Below are positions 2,054-42,624 of a stretch of 64,000 nucleotides of DNA, in pieces. The notes below the pieces were generated by a model. It did not search any database. It was not told where the DNA came from and saw only the letters and a list, made by a program, of their open reading frames with translations. Where the stretch lies: positions 321,346,001 through 321,410,000 of the forward strand of contig OZ024741.1 of NCBI GenBank assembly GCA_964016885.1, written 5' to 3'. The stretch's first letter is position 1. Every line of letters starts with the position of its first letter. The position numbers were made by a program, and so were the translations under genes. Origin of the DNA: Eledone cirrhosa. Its lineage: Eukaryota.

Positions 2054-2482
2054 AAGATTCAGGACCCCGACGACTGAGCTCCGCCATTTCGACAGCTAGA
2101 TCCAAACTAAGCTACTAGTATTAGAACGGCGGGGATCTAGCTGAACTAATCAAGGGGTACAGTCCATATATGGACATGCAGTCAAAGCAAAAAAGCAAAA
2201 AATCTAAGCAAACATATCTTAAAGGTTTGTTGTCTATCTTGTCAGATATTTTGCTTTGTTTTGCTTTGACTGCATGCCCATATATGGACTGCACCCCTTG
2301 ATAAGTTCAGCTAGATTCCCGTCGATCTAATACTGATGGCTTAGTTCGGATCGAGCTGTGGAAACGGCCGGAACTCAGCCGTCGAGGTCCTGAATCTTTT
2401 CATGTTACCCACTCTACTACCCCAAGTATCGAGTACTCTGGTACTTGTGGTCCACATGGTATCTTACCACATCTTCTTTCTT
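2054..2482. mobile_element. PLE terminal-repeat hairpin (family A, long form) with a decayed hammerhead in each arm
   Basis: Inverted arms about 2054-2200 and 2248-2398 plus a one-sided tail, flanked by (TA)n. An arm reads acccc-TTGAT(A/T)A-long stem II-GAAA-stem III-GTC-g(g/a)ggt. Confidence 0.75.
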
Positions 2483-2670
2483 ATATATATATATATATAT
2501 GTATATATATATATATATATATATATATATATATATATATTCATGTATATACATGTATATATATATGTATGATAAAGTTATATCTGCATAAACACATACA
2601 TATATGTATACATACATATATATATATATATATATATATATATATATATATATATATATATATATATATA

Positions 2671-2876
2671 TAACGAAGGAAATGTAGTAAGGAACCAGGT
2701 GGACCATAACGCACCAAAGTACTCAATACTTAGGGTAATAGAGTGGGTAATAGGAACCAGTAAGACCCCGACGGCTGAGCTCAAGCCGTTTCGACGGCTA
2801 ATTCTGGACTGATTTAGACCAGAATTAGCCGTCGAAACGGCTTGAGCTCAGCCGTCGGGGTCTTACTGGTTCCTAT
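2671..2876. mobile_element. PLE terminal hairpin, family A short form
   Basis: An 80-bp tail, then perfect inverted arms 2750-2807 and 2819-2876, between (TA)n tracts. Contains GAAAC-stem III-GTC. Confidence 0.8.
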
Positions 2877-3525
2877 ATATATATATATATATATATATAT
2901 ATATATATATATATATGTATGTATGTATGTATACATATATGTATGTGTTTATGCAGATATAACTTTATCAGACACTTCAGCTGCTAGCGCATCTCTTTAT
3001 ATATCTTAATTAATTATCAACACGAGCGCTAAATATATGCAAATTAGTATCTTCATTTCAGAGTAATACTAAGACCGAATGGCTATATATACCCATAAAA
3101 TAACTGCTTCCTAGTGGTTGATTGGATGATATACTCATCTTCTAATGAGGATTCAAAAAAATTCAAAAATCGATGAAAGTTGTTTATCATTTTTTTTTCC
3201 ATTTACAGGGAAATTTTGGCATGTTTGCATTCCCACAAGTTAGATATGTCTATATATATTTATATACAAAGGTGAACTCTTGTATTACGTAAATATAGCT
3301 TTATCATACACTTAGGCTGCTAGCGCACCTCCTACTATGTATATATATATATATATATATATATATATATATATATATATATCATATATATAGTATATAT
3401 ATTATATTATATTATATTATATTATATTATATTATATTATATTATATTATATTATATATAACATTATAATTATTAATATTATATATGTATTATATTTATG
3501 TATGTGTATATATATATGTATATAT

Positions 3526-3612
3526 CACAGGCATTGCACGATAGAATTAATAATTATTAATAATGGTATATCGTGCGATGGCCATACTCGATAACGAGGG
3601 GGCAGCCATCTT
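3526..3612 (+). mobile_element. 5'-truncated copy of the SINE-like family seen at 60100-60723
   Basis: Near-identical to the reverse complement of 60100-60188. Ends ggccatactcgataacgagggggcagccatc. Confidence 0.75.
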
Positions 3613-3707
3613 CATCATATATATATATATATATATGCCCCAGCATGGCCTCAGCCGGATGGCTGGAACAGATAAAAAATGTATAAAATATATATATATA
3701 TATATAT

Positions 3708-3810
3708 ATAACGAAGGAATTGTGGTAAGGAACCAGATGGACCATAACGCACCAGAAATAGCTGTCGAAACGGCTTGAGCTCTGCCGTCGGGGTCATTCT
3801 TTTTCTTATA
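3708..3810. mobile_element. Family A hairpin copy with left arm deleted
   Basis: The tail taacgaagga... is joined directly to ...gtcgaaacggcttgagctc...gtcggggtc. Confidence 0.7.
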
Positions 3811-4524
3811 TATATATATATATATACAGGGATGAAAAATGGCGTGCTGCGTTGTTGTGGATGTGATACATATGAATTAAAAAATAGAGTAAGAAGCCAG
3901 GACTCTCCGTCATCAGTGATCTTCTGGCCATCATAGGTATTTCTTCGTATTAAAGATCATATACCTTAGGCCAGCGCGAGCAATAACTAAATAAAGTTAT
4001 TGCGATAAAAAGAATTGGGTGGAGAAAGAGAGACATGTAAACAAACAAGAATGGTAAGGCAACGTAAAGGGTGAAAAATAAAGTCAGTGATACAAGTGAA
4101 TAAGATCTGGCGGATCATTGACGAGAAGACGAAAGATGCATCCAAGCCATGCGAAATGTGAGCGAGAAAAGAATTTCACTCTCTCTCTCTCTCTATATAT
4201 ATATATATATATATATATATATATATATAGAGAGAGAGAGAGAGGGAGAGAGAGAGAGAGAGAGAGAGAGAGAGAGAGAGAGAGAGAGAGAGAGAGAGAG
4301 AGAGAGAGAGAGAGTTAGATAGATAAAGAGATAGAGAGACATGCGAAATCCCGACCACGGCGCCAAGCGGTTTTGGCTTGTTCTGCAGACCTTTTCATGT
4401 ATTTAACGGTTGAGAGAAAGGAGTACTTAATACCGAAGTAGAGTTTTAATATTCAATATTATTAAAGGTAAAACGTGTTACTCTGGAGTTTCGCCTCTTT
4501 AACACAGCGTCATACATATAATAT

Positions 4525-39058: not shown

Positions 39059-39512
39059 CCTGTGTCAGTGTTGAACAAAAAGGTGACGTGGTTGCCTTAA
39101 CACCGTATGGCATAAATTCAGGCTGTTCGCTTTGTTGACAAACAAACGAACAAAGCGGCCGGCGTTATAATAAACGCCGGCTAAACTGATGCGTGCATAT
39201 ATGTATGTGTACCTGTATGCATGTGTGTATATATGTATATATATATATATATATATATGTATATATATATATATGCATGCTACTGTACGTCTGTATACAT
39301 ATATGTATGTACGTATACATACATACTTACATTTAAGTAAGTGCCATACTAAGAGTGAGAAATGAAATTTCGTTTTCATTTTTTTTCAACTTATCGTTTT
39401 CGGTATGCCTGACCGATTTAACTCACTCAATATGCAAATTAGGCTGCTCAGCCGTTAATTTTCATAAGGAAAGTATATACTTTCGAACGTTCAACTATCT
39501 GGCAGATGGGTA

Positions 39513-39557
39513 AACGGTGCTGATGATAGCTAACAAGCTTGAAACTAGTACATCGTT
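39513..39557 (+). ncRNA. Minimal type I hammerhead ribozyme, second tandem copy
   Basis: Identical to 39014-39058. Confidence 0.9.
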
Positions 39558-41444
39558 CCTGTGTCAGTGTTGAACAAAAAGGTGACGTGGTTGCCTTAAC
39601 ACCGTATGGCATAAATTCAGGCTGTTCGCTTTGTTGACAAACAAACGAACAAAGCGGCCGGCGTTATAATAAACGCCGGCTAAACTGATGCGTGCATATA
39701 TGTATGTGTACCTGTATGCATGTGTGTATATATGTATATATATATATATATATATATGTATATATATATATATATGCATGCTACTGTACGTCTGTATACA
39801 TATATGTATGTACGTATACATACATACTTACATTTAAGTAAGTGCCATACTAAGAGTGAGAAATGAAATTTCGTTTTCATTTTTTTTCAACTTATATATA
39901 TATATATATATATATATACATACAGGCACACATATATATATATGCACGTATCAGTTTACCGAACATTTATTATAATGCTCGGTTTGTTCGTTTGTAAACA
40001 AACAAACAGCCTGAATTACGCCGTACATGTGTGCCTGTATGTATATATATACATGCTACTGTACGTCTGTATACATATATGTATGTACGTATACATACAT
40101 ACTTACATTTAAGTAAGTGCCGTACTAAGAGTGAGAAATGAAATTTCGTTTCATTCTATTCCATTTATATATATATATACGAGATATACTCTCGTATGCG
40201 TGCACATATATATATATATATATATATATATATATATATATATATATATATATATATAAGGGTTGTCTCCCCTTCCCGCTTCGTGTCGCTATGATACTTC
40301 CTCAGTCAAAAACTGCTGGAATTTCAAATTTGGCGGTCATTCAAGGTGAGAGAGAGCAACTTTACGGACATGATTTTTGACAGCGGTAAGAAATTGTTTT
40401 CTTATATCGATGTTTAATGGGCTTCCACTGATGATTTATAAGTACCCACCTAAATATATTCTTACATGAATATATATTAGGCTTCTACATAAACTGGAAA
40501 CATTCTCCCAAACTTGTAGAAAACTTATAATGAAACAATTGTTTGGAAAGAGAGATATACTTTAACTTTAATTATATCTCATAAAATAATACAACTGGTT
40601 TTTCCACATTATACATATTGTTAGCACCCCAAACACTTAAATTGGGTTTATATTTTAATATAACCTAATGTTTGTTGAGTGAGATGGTTACCAGTCAGAG
40701 TTTAGCTTTAAACTATCTCTGCTATTGTATTAATTATATATATATGTATATGTGTGTATATAAGTACACATGTATGTATATGAGTGTGGGTGTCTACGTG
40801 TGCATGGATTTATACACGTGTGTGTGTGTGTGCGTGTGTACGTCTACGCCCCGGCCGACAACGCATTCCATCACTTGTGTGTGTACACACAGATATATGT
40901 TTATCCTACTTATATGCGTGTGTGTGTGTGTGTGTGTGCGCGTGCCAGTGTATGTGTGTGTGAGTGTGTGTATAGACCCATATACATATACTTTGTACAT
41001 GCATGGATGGGGACGAGTGTGTGTGTGTATCACATGCCCACGCCATGTTTCCACTAGTGTGTATGCTCACATGTGTATGTATATCCTACGTGTGTGTGTA
41101 TGCGTGTATATATATGTATATGCCTTTACATACACCCTGATCATTAACTCCTTATAACATGATCCCCCTTAACAATCTCCTATCACAACTATCACCCCAC
41201 CCTAAACACTGCACTCTTTCATCCAGTACCATAAACCGCACCACCATCACACCCACACCTCACCCAGAAAATCAGCCTCCAAAGTACACCCAAACTGTCT
41301 AGTGACAGTCAAAATGCCACCCACTTCAATCTACAATACAGACGAAAACATCCCTCAGAATTAACTCGCCAATCAAAACAAATTTCATTGAACATCAGAC
41401 TTTCTTGTACGCCATGTATAATCATTTTTTCATTGCCACTAAAA

Positions 41445-41540
41445 GCGTCTGACGAGCCGTGGATTACAGAGTCGTGTTAGATCGTTACAGATCGAACCTT
41501 GAGCTGATCGGTGGCGAAACGCGCGTCACCAATCAATAAA
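41445..41540 (+). ncRNA. Hammerhead-like motif with extended stem II, followed by AATAAA
   Basis: CTGACGA-gcc...ggc-GAAAC-gcgc-GTC; stem I is weak. Confidence 0.6.
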
Positions 41541-41874
41541 CGTAATGAAGGAGTAACCACTTGTCCTTGGTTTATTTTATTATATATATATATATATATA
41601 TATATATATATACGCACACACATCTATATATATATGTGTGTGTGTGTATGTATATATATATATATATATATATATATATATATATATATATATATATATA
41701 TATATATATATATATATATATATATATATATAATATATATATATATATATATATATATATATATATATATATATATATATATATATATATAATATATATA
41801 TATATATATATATATATATATATATATATATATATATATATATATATACATATATATATATATATATATATATA

Positions 41875-42282
41875 TATTAGAATGATCGCGTATCGAAAAA
41901 TCGGCGCACGAGTTCACGATAAACAAAATTCGAAATGAGCGGCAGAGGGCTCAATAATTCAGATAAATCAGAGCTATAACTATCGTTAAAATACCGTCAC
42001 ACATAGAACAAGTCTAAAATCAACCGCACGATAAAGAATCGATAACAGAAGATTCGGGACACTCAGATAAAAAATATCAATAAATCAATAATTTAAATGA
42101 ATGTAAAATCATACCCGGACCCACTAGAAAGGTGTTAAATCTAGCTTCTTGGGTTTCTGTAAATCCTTAAACTGTACTCCATCAGCTCACATATAAATAT
42201 ATAAGACTTCTAGAATTCAGCGGACTGGAAATTTACTTCTTCAACGAGCTTTCGTCCGAACGGATAAGATGGCTAAACCCAG
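41875..42282 (-). repeat. Family B copy
   Basis: Reverse complement of about 16281-16687, between (TA)n tracts. Confidence 0.9.
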
Positions 42283-42421
42283 ATATATATATATATATAT
42301 ATATATATATATATATATATATATATATATATATATATATATATATATATATATATATATATATATATATATATATACACACATATATATAAATATACAT
42401 CTATATATATATATATATATA

Positions 42422-42624
42422 TAACGAAGGAAATGTGGTAAGGAAGCAGATGGACCATAACGCACCAAAATACTCAATACTTAGGGTAGTAGAGTGGGTG
42501 ATAGGAATGAGTAGGACCCCGACGGCTGAGCTCAAGCCGTTTCGACGGCTAATTCTGGACGCAGAGTCCAGAATTAGCCGTCGAAACGGCTTGAGCTCAG
42601 CCGTCGGGGTCCTACTCGTTCCTA
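42422..42624. mobile_element. Family A short PLE hairpin
   Basis: Tail plus arms 42501-42560 and 42566-42624. Confidence 0.85.

What the first reader, a model, noticed from the sequence alone, without database searches (positions are those of the whole stretch)
2054..42624. Fold-back hairpin insertions in (TA)n whose apex repeatedly lies in hammerhead stem II
Seen: at least 8 modules share the layout (TA)n-tail-arm-inverted arm-(TA)n, at 2054, 2671, 10905, 11155, 15404, 26253, 37845 and 42422. In five of them (2671, 10905, 11155, 26253, 42422; two unrelated families) the symmetry centre lies just 5' of the HHR GAAA, inside stem/loop II, so only the 3' half of the ribozyme survives, twice. The inverted repeat of the 8322-10578 PLE also starts at the HHR core (10405). 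Copy-specific substitutions are mirrored in both arms (gacAgc/gcTgtc at 26253; gagtagg/cctactc at 42422), and loops differ between copies. Known: PLE pLTRs carry minimal type I HHRs and can be inverted. Inference: each hairpin arose independently when cDNA self-primed second-strand synthesis on the ribozyme's own hairpin, making the HHR a turn-around site as well as a cleavage site.
Basis: partly seen in the sequence, partly recalled or inferred. Interest (0 to 1): 0.78.

Follow-up and report, generated by a model that had tools for sequence, protein, structure and literature searches.

The report
Retroelement hairpins mark transcript start
The hairpins are real, number over 13,000 in this animal genome, and are the shortest insertions of Penelope-like retrotransposons; they are likely made when two DNA copies each run off the likely capped start of the element's RNA and are joined, rather than by one copy folding back on the ribozyme.

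Summary
The modules exist (7 clear hairpins, 1 weak). They are minimal insertions of Penelope-like elements (PLEs); family A has an intact Hydra-type ORF and 13,138 exact-pattern hairpins genome-wide. Centres differ (44 distinct of 48), so they form anew each time. The stem II fold-back reading fails. In A, 0 of 90 unbiased copies end on stem II's 5' strand. In F, 33 of 34 hairpins turn upstream of stem II. Mirrored changes are subfamily variants (private ones: 0 of 16 mirrored). In 12 of 63 two-arm copies the second arm holds sequence the first lacks. Arms have two fixed outer ends (+42, +119) and pile up at a family-specific inner edge. That edge lies 29-31 nt below a TATA(-like) box in A and F, and carries a non-native G in A (5,723 G against 922 A). 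Best reading: two sense-RNA-templated cDNAs run off the capped transcript start and are end-joined. A TATA prediction failed in a third family, and no RNA data were available. Inverted PLE junctions are known; this mechanism was not found in my paper searches. The scan noted a hairpin-shaped PLE insertion in another genome before.

The parts
2052..2481 (+). Family B (relative of A) hairpin; whole hammerhead-like motif (U3-A8 core) in both arms, apex near 2225, about 135 nt 5' of GAAA; tail at right
   Evidence: sense GAAA 2361, antisense 2090, spacer 270 nt
2673..2876 (.). Family A hairpin: antisense tail arm (+119 to about -19) and sense short arm (about -21 to +42) in (TA)n
3711..3806 (.). 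Family A copy whose arms do not overlap: tail arm stops near +76 and is joined through a 3-nt overlap to a short arm starting at -15. It cannot be a fold-back.
   Evidence: sense GAAA at 3767, no antisense GAAA
8322..10404 (-). Family P PLE, 5'-truncated in RT, broken ORF (RT, Cys linker, GIY-YIG-like end), 3' pLTR with whole hammerhead motif (core 8566-8572, GAAA 8544-8547) and 56-nt tail
   Evidence: (RVT_1 E 5.6e-05, below curated cut-off)
10405..10577 (+). Inverted pLTR arm of the P element, from -22 (inside the core) to the short outer end +169
10905..11100 (-). Family F copy with a 13-bp palindrome centred at 10939-10956 and a deleted right arm; atypical apex
11153..11321 (.). Family B hairpin, apex about 17-18 nt 5' of GAAA (loop II), tail at right
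11362..11430 (+). Family F sense arm starting at the 5' strand of stem I, whole hammerhead motif (GAAA mutated)
15404..15777 (.). Hairpin of a further family; whole hammerhead in both arms (core 15692-15698, GAAA 15726), apex 15628-15637, about 55 nt 5' of the core
26255..26444 (.). Family A hairpin, both arms ending at about -13/-14
37845..38350 (.). Family G hairpin; putative U3-A8 hammerhead with very long loop II (stem I 5' strand 38160, GAAA 38278), apex 5' of stem I
   Evidence: the fold does not give the three-way junction for this family
42424..42625 (.). Family A hairpin; short arm starts at -18 with a non-native G before it

Best explanation
Each hairpin is a minimal Penelope-like insertion into (TA)n with two fixed outer ends and a variable centre, likely built from two cDNAs that are each templated by sense RNA, likely run off the RNA's capped 5' end (the inferred transcription start in the pLTR), and are likely joined head to head by end joining. 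Steps: (1) inferred: the element protein cuts both strands of (TA)n and primes from both target ends; (2) shown: one arm starts at +119 and the other at +42 (G of GAAA = 0, family A), which defines the tail; (3) inferred: when these sites are used on the copy near the RNA's 5' end, both cDNAs stop within about 60 and 140 nt; use of the read-through 3' copy gives long insertions; (4) shown: inner ends pile up at -9 to -23 with a sharp upstream edge and excess G before A(-18); (5) shown: junctions are short overlaps, blunt joints or small, often templated, inserts; (6) inferred: both arms come from one RNA or one source locus. The hammerhead lies near the apex because the inferred start lies in loop II (A, B) or at the base of stem I (F, G), not because stem II primes.
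For: Family A, first 90 of 21,267 tail ends: tail-arm inner end at -25..-9 in 52 of 90, -45..-26 in 1, -66..-46 in 0, beyond in 5; second arm at -25..-9 in 51 of 63. Stops per base 0.096-0.107 in -9..-23 against about 0.004 on either side for the tail arm. Second-arm outer end called at +42 in 55 of 63; by eye 7 more are +42 with a variant or small deletion and 1 is a tail end; none lies at the other TAT sites, +64 and +84. Twelve of 63 second arms reach 20 nt or more further 5' than the tail arm, 1 the reverse; centre orientation 25:24:14 equal. The stop holds without a palindrome: 7 of 13 partnerless tail arms that pass GAAA end at -13..-22, and 8 of 12 second arms whose partner ends at +20 or later end at -11..-20. 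A tandem array ends at +42 while its tail arm is a separate inverted piece of about 300 nt. Non-native base before A(-18): G 5,723, A 922; 34 long copies have T or C there, never G; none of 30 G loci continues natively upstream. TATA-like TATTTAAATA 29 nt above A(-18) in 14 of 31 long A copies. TATAAATA 29-30 nt above the F edge, with a pyrimidine-purine pair at the edge; G before that purine in 2 of 53 long copies (read by eye, 2 hairpin artefacts dropped from 55) against 13 of 19 truncated arms. ORF-bearing copies also start at -2..-21 in 6 of 30 loci. Contig depth in run X1 rises about 16-fold at the bin that begins at -22. Literature: a PLE protein cuts and extends both strands, is predicted to be a dimer, starts at two RNA sites that delimit the tail, and uses uncleaved RNA (PMC11167929, parts 1-2 of 4 read); untemplated 5' G is attributed to cap copying for L1/SVA (PMC9341517, PMC3287187, passages).
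Against: No RNA run was listed, so the start site and cap are inferred from DNA. Half of the 30 G loci (15, by eye) and 8-9 of the 13 F cases could take the G from the partner arm; the remaining excess in A is about 3:1. An RT that adds C at any template end would give the same G. My prediction of a TATA box 29-30 nt above the edge failed in family G. B has the -18 edge but no TATA at that distance and no clear G excess. The A box is weak in several subfamilies (31-nt spacing, TATTTATTTA or TATTCATATA). The A edge is not single: arms reach -19..-23 often. In P the inner ends are scattered, 9 of 30 at -23..-50. Samples come from the first part of one contig. Centre breakage after insertion could also make asymmetric copies.
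Confidence: 0.7

Rival explanations
1. Two RNA-templated cDNAs, but the inner edge is a roadblock or processing site on a longer RNA (bound protein, tertiary fold, nuclease cut or exonuclease stop near the ribozyme), not a capped start.
For: The edge lies in or beside the hammerhead in all families looked at. In F and G it is at the 5' strand of stem I. B and G lack a TATA box at the expected distance.
Against: The position relative to the fold differs (loop II in A and B, stem I in F and G). The G excess and the 29-30 nt TATA spacing with a pyrimidine-purine pair in F are not expected from a roadblock. The edge is not the ribozyme's cleavage site (+22/+23).
Confidence: 0.13
2. One cDNA snaps back on a few bases of itself in the loop, is copied into a second arm, and later breakage or deletion at the palindrome centre creates the asymmetric forms.
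For: 27 of 63 junctions are short overlaps that fit snap-back as well as annealing of two cDNAs; arms share subfamily variants. Self-priming was proposed for head-to-head PLE palindromes (PMC3846280, passages).
Against: It does not explain a fixed +42 end that skips other TAT sites, the same stop in partnerless arms, the extra G on either or both arms, or long second arms beside 40-nt tail arms in young copies (16 private changes in 39 hairpins).
Confidence: 0.08
3. A few hairpin masters spread as a unit, like a MITE or SINE, and centres diverged later.
For: Both outer ends are constant; very high copy number.
Against: 44 distinct centres among 48 hairpins with few other changes. The same hairpin caps ORF-bearing copies (L152, L153, L156, L158). 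Hairpin subfamily variants match those of long copies. The same two outer ends occur on long insertions.
Confidence: 0.06
4. One reading: the cDNA self-primes on hammerhead stem II.
For: Centres of A and B lie between the two strands of stem II in sequence; 10905 turns at an 8-nt palindrome 5' of GAAA.
Against: It predicts a centre equal to the whole native loop II in every copy; 0 of 90 A copies show it. F: 33 of 34 spacers are 31 nt or more, against 24 or fewer expected. P: 1 of 30 arms ends in stem II, and it looks like an internal deletion.
Confidence: 0.03

Closest known systems
Inverted 5'-truncated copy plus 'tail' architecture of EN+ Penelope-like elements (PMC8557442; PMC3846280)
   Same: Head-to-head inverted pLTR arms, a tail on one end only, (TA)n target, tandem arrays, palindromes at the inverted junction, TATA and initiator-like motifs in a pLTR.
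   Different: Here both arms are reduced to 60-140 nt in most copies, with a sharp family-specific inner edge and an extra G. PMC3846280 explains the palindromes by self-priming on an antisense template; these data point to two sense-templated cDNAs.
Hydra clade of C-terminal EN+ PLEs (PMC8557442, section 11)
   Same: [quoted passage not shown]
   Different: Unit is 3.5 kb (Hydra generally under 3 kb), tail about 77 nt; no tree was built.
Poseidon element PAc of the green anole, in vitro (PMC11167929)
   Same: Two RT start sites delimit the tail; both target strands are extended; uncleaved RNA is used.
   Different: In PAc the ORF starts in stem II; in A the first ATG is about 216 nt below GAAA. 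The parts read do not address how inverted arms join or stop.
Minimal hammerheads of PLEs, including opposite-strand pairs and U3-A8 cores (PMC4209133)
   Same: Type I motifs in pLTRs, U3-A8 variant, dual motifs 100-700 bp apart on opposite strands.
   Different: A has a long stem III and a 37-nt loop II, and most copies keep only the 3' half.
L1 twin priming and cap-derived 5' G (twin priming recalled, not from a call; cap G from PMC9341517, PMC3287187)
   Same: Two target ends prime two cDNAs that are joined by short overlaps; untemplated G at a complete 5' end.
   Different: In L1 the two cDNAs cover different parts of the RNA and the second start is opportunistic; here both starts are fixed and the cDNAs overlap, giving a palindrome.

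Membership tests
EN+ Penelope-like element | Single ORF with RT and C-terminal GIY-YIG endonuclease | tested here: met
   716-aa open frame with YRDD and VIYQC...AYIG motifs in two arrays (read by eye). Pfam gave 0 hits and PDB none. Atlas look-alikes score 0.96-0.99, several clusters carrying GIY-YIG (26-50% of members) or RVT_1.
EN+ Penelope-like element | Tandem or partial-tandem units forming pLTRs; inverted truncated copy; tail on one end | tested here: met
   3.53-3.54 kb tandem units; two fixed outer ends in A (+42/+119) and P (+169/+225 in 27 of 30 arms).
Hydra clade | DKT, RWK, CxCX5C linker, no CCHH, CxxC/CxH, (TA)n target | tested here: met
   Family A protein against the list; RWK appears as RWR. 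F and G flanks carry similar C-terminal fragments.
Hydra clade | Placement in the RT phylogeny | not tested
   No reference sequences were fetched; no tree.
Type I hammerhead ribozyme | Core C/U3-U-G-A-N-G/A8-A, GAAA, UH site in a three-way junction | tested here: met
   Minimum-energy folds give the junction with unpaired core for A and 15404, and stems I and II for P; not for B, F or G. No Rfam hit.
Type I hammerhead ribozyme | Self-cleavage | not testable with these tools
   Inserted arms cross the predicted site uncut; 6 of 90 tail arms end at +23..+42, no pile-up.
Stem II fold-back product | Centre equals whole native loop II; second arm is a subset of the first | tested here: not met
   0 of 90; 12 of 63 second arms exceed the first.
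MITE-like unit repeat | Shared interior inherited between copies | tested here: not met
   44 distinct centres of 48.
MITE-like unit repeat | Target-site duplication | not testable with these tools
   Insertions sit in (TA)n, which hides duplications.
Capped Pol II transcript start at the edge | Extra G, TATA at about -30, pyrimidine-purine start | tested here: inconclusive
   Met in A and F; TATA not met in B and G; no RNA data.
Non-LTR retrozyme | Short head-to-tail tandem repeats each with a whole hammerhead | tested here: not met
   Modules are head-to-head and dispersed; definition from 10.64898/2026.07.22.740005, part 1 of 5 read.

The most novel reading that the evidence does not exclude
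PLEs integrate by programmed double priming: an asymmetric dimer on one capped sense RNA starts one cDNA at each end of the tail from the two ends of a cut target, and the host joins them. This one rule would explain the tail, the inverted pLTR, junction palindromes and these hairpins, and would turn thousands of hairpin apexes into a fossil map of PLE transcription starts. In family A the start splits the ribozyme, so only read-through copies could cleave.
Probability: 0.5. Interest if true: 0.78.

Novelty: new variant of a known kind. Interest (0 to 1): 0.62.

Why it matters
How PLEs make their inverted and tandem structures is named as open in PMC8557442, and PMC3846280 left sense against antisense template undecided. 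These junctions favour a sense template and two RNA-templated cDNAs, link the two in vitro start sites of PMC11167929 to the two ends of one insertion, and give exact positions to test with an intact young element. They also show that one family has seeded over 13,000 short palindromes in this genome.

Tried and rejected
Rfam found no hammerhead in the window or in long copies. Pfam and PDB did not recognise the family A protein; BLASTP of A against the P fragment gave nothing. The look-up of sequencing runs: no RNA holder listed. The runs laid were contigs of unrecorded kind, partly perhaps the assembly's own sample; no piece spans the 26253 hairpin, so the independent long-read check was not possible. 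One 60-nt contig of organism B matches both strands at -8..+21; single and low depth, a lead only. Prediction of a TATA box above the family G edge: failed; that sample was also biased to full-length matches of the query. My TATA filter caught only 2 of 9 long F arms (the rest read by eye). Arm-to-arm gene conversion as the source of mirroring: rejected (0 of 16 private variants mirrored). Microhomology alone fixing the short end: rejected (TAT at +64 and +84 unused). Assembly artefact: unlikely given 44 distinct centres, private one-arm changes and asymmetric joints in read contigs. Paper searches found no paper describing a two-cDNA run-off origin for PLE hairpins; subscription journals are mostly not searched and supplements were not read (the HHR file S2 of PMC8557442 and Fig. 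S2 of PMC11167929 may bear on this). Look-ups of earlier scan notes by sequence and by a second word set gave nothing.
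Full report
Setting. The window is G000:C2:321346001-321410000 of a 3.0-Gb genome rich in (TA)n. Positions below count from the G of the hammerhead GAAA (0); negative is 5'.

Observation. Self-comparison confirms inverted arms at 2054, 2671, 11155, 15404, 26253, 37845 and 42422; 10905 is a 13-bp palindrome with a broken arm. 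Nine bins hold a 20-nt inverted repeat within 400 nt, against 0 in 20 shuffles. The inverted arm of the 8322 element begins at -22, in the core.

What family A is. Long copies give the whole motif: stem I ACCCC/GGGGT, core TTGAGAA (U3-A8, a variant reported in PMC4209133, part 1 of 4 and passages read), stem II closing a ~37-nt loop, GAAA, a long stem III, site at +22. It folds as a three-way junction; Rfam does not detect it. The tail continues into a 5' UTR and a 716-aa open frame in tandem units of 3.53-3.54 kb. The protein has the motifs listed for the Hydra clade. There are 21,267 exact tail ends joined to TA, 13,138 exact-pattern hairpins and 342 tail-to-UTR junctions. These are lower bounds.

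Unbiased sample. I took the first 90 of the 100 listed tail ends, all on contig C1. Tail arms end at -25..-9 in 52 of 90, at -45..-26 in 1, at -66..-46 in 0, beyond -66 in 5, and 3' of -9 in 32. Sixty-three have an adjacent inverted arm; 51 of these begin at -25..-9, and the outer end is called at +42 in 55. Stops per base are about 25 times higher in -9..-23 than on either side. An earlier sample biased to long matches gave 23 hairpins in 30 loci.

Why not fold-back on stem II. That model needs the cDNA to reach the stem's 5' strand (-54..-46) and leaves the whole loop as centre; no copy of 90 does. Any fold-back makes the second arm a subset of the first. Twelve of 63 second arms reach 20-562 nt further 5' (1 the reverse), and the centre comes from either arm equally, 25 to 24 with 14 equal. 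The window's own copy at 3711-3806 has arms that do not overlap. Arms without a palindromic partner stop at the same place (7 of 13 and 8 of 12). A tandem array ends at +42 while its tail arm is a separate piece of about 300 nt. Junctions are 27 overlaps, 11 blunt, 12 inserts of 1-2 nt and 13 longer inserts, several copied from the neighbouring arm. That pattern resembles polymerase-theta joining (my knowledge, not tested).

Mirroring. In 39 clean hairpins, variants seen in three or more hairpins are in both arms 44 times and in one arm 4 times; variants seen once are mirrored 0 of 16 times. Both arms thus come from one source, without later conversion. Centres are distinct in 44 of 48.

What the edge is. 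A(-18) sits in TTAGTC or TCAGTC, an initiator-like word (consensus recalled). Long copies have T (28) or C (6) before it, never G. Genome-wide, the non-native base there is G 5,723 times and A 922 times. In 30 G loci none continues natively; by eye 15 could take the G from the partner arm and 15 could not, and two hairpins show it on both arms. TATTTAAATA lies 29 nt above A(-18) in 14 of 31 long copies; other subfamilies have weaker words at 31 nt. Six of 30 ORF-joined loci also begin at -2..-21, 16 continue natively as tandem junctions (by eye). An untemplated 5' G is attributed to cap copying for L1 and SVA (PMC9341517, PMC3287187; passages).

Other families. F has 15,216 matches. I fetched 70 of the first 100 places, dropped 11 duplicates, and kept 59 loci with 96 arms. 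Of 34 hairpins (one cross-pair dropped), 33 have GAAA spacers of 31 nt or more; stem II turning would give 24 or fewer. Nineteen of 96 arms do end in stem II or nearer; 9 run past the edge (by eye). The edge is the purine just before stem I, 29-30 nt below TATAAATA. G precedes that purine in 2 of 53 long copies and 13 of 19 truncated arms with G at the edge, 8-9 of them ambiguous. B also stops near -18 but has no TATA at that distance and no clear G excess. For G (37845) I predicted a TATA box beforehand; it is absent, though apexes gather at the base of stem I. The 15404 family turns mostly at or above the core in the 8 relatives seen. P has fixed outer ends (+169, +225; 27 of 30 arms) but scattered inner ends, 9 of 30 at -23..-50 and 1 in stem II.

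Mechanism. Shown: two fixed outer ends, one of each per insertion; independent inner ends; a sharp family-specific edge; extra G in A; new junctions each time. Inferred: both target ends prime, at the two RNA start sites, on one sense RNA; both cDNAs run off the capped 5' end when the 5' copy of the sites is used; the host joins them. PMC11167929 (parts 1-2 of 4 read) supports cutting and extension of both strands, two start sites that delimit the tail, and use of uncleaved RNA. PMC2377424 (passages and discussion) places the Penelope promoter in the pLTR. A consequence, inferred: in A the start splits the ribozyme, so the 5' copy could not cleave in cis.

Known and new. Inverted truncated copies, tails and (TA)n bias are known (PMC8557442, passages and section 11). 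Junction palindromes were reported and read as self-priming on an antisense template (PMC3846280, passages). Opposite-strand hammerhead pairs were noted in PMC4209133. My nine paper searches found no account of the run-off and joining reading, of the G signature in PLEs, or of hairpins at this scale; most subscription papers are not searched. PMC9977147 (passages) added only that new PLE insertions are short. An earlier scan note (e1-9983008) describes a hairpin-shaped PLE insertion in another genome; I did not test it.

Limits. No RNA data. Read contigs show the depth step at -22 and asymmetric joints but may be the assembly's sample and do not span the locus. Cap and non-templated C addition cannot be told apart from DNA. 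Several counts are by eye, as marked.

Verdict. Real and abundant; first mechanism not supported; best reading two cDNAs running off the transcript start, 0.70. New variant of a known kind; interest 0.62.

Noticed in passing
Near-identical relative in L173, weaker one in L137. No clear hammerhead found.
   Followed up: partly
L211-L214 (G000:C1:91474000-91490000 and 437196500-437216000): Tandem arrays of the 3.5-kb family A unit with an intact frame. Units differ by 0-7 nt within an array and 26-30 between arrays, as expected from repeated copying of one template (circular RNA or template jumping). A possible role for the ribozyme.
   Followed up: partly
tails of families A and F, e.g. window 2720-2745 and L207: The tails share a motif (CTCT.CTA ... 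GTATTGAGTAC) between the two start sites; candidate protein-binding site.
   Followed up: no
family A sample: Tail arms stop early far more often than short arms (12 against 1), 7 of the 12 before +42; may reflect collision with the complex at +42, or detection bias.
   Followed up: partly
L154 (G000:C1:27008402-27011423): Partial tandem in which sequence from the ORF start joins directly to -21, as if a cDNA jumped templates at the RNA 5' end.
   Followed up: no
window 5095-6780: A further broken PLE on the + strand with its own hammerhead-like word near 6674 (CTGAAGA...GAAA), preceded by an inverted family F piece.
   Followed up: no
window 43627-43725, 44948-45327, 27668-27711: Inverted repeats not flanked by (TA)n, with no relatives among the loci fetched; likely local template-switch events.
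   Followed up: partly
window 49158-53707 (- strand): LINE-like element with endonuclease, RT and zinc-knuckle ORF1 fragments.
   Followed up: no
window 4543-4700, 9724-9803, 10676-10860, 11842-11990, 28634-28996: Copies of a short dispersed repeat (SINE-like), one inserted inside the 8322 element.
   Followed up: no
L211, upstream of first unit: A ~52-nt piece of the ORF amplified as a long tandem run at the 5' end of the array.
   Followed up: no
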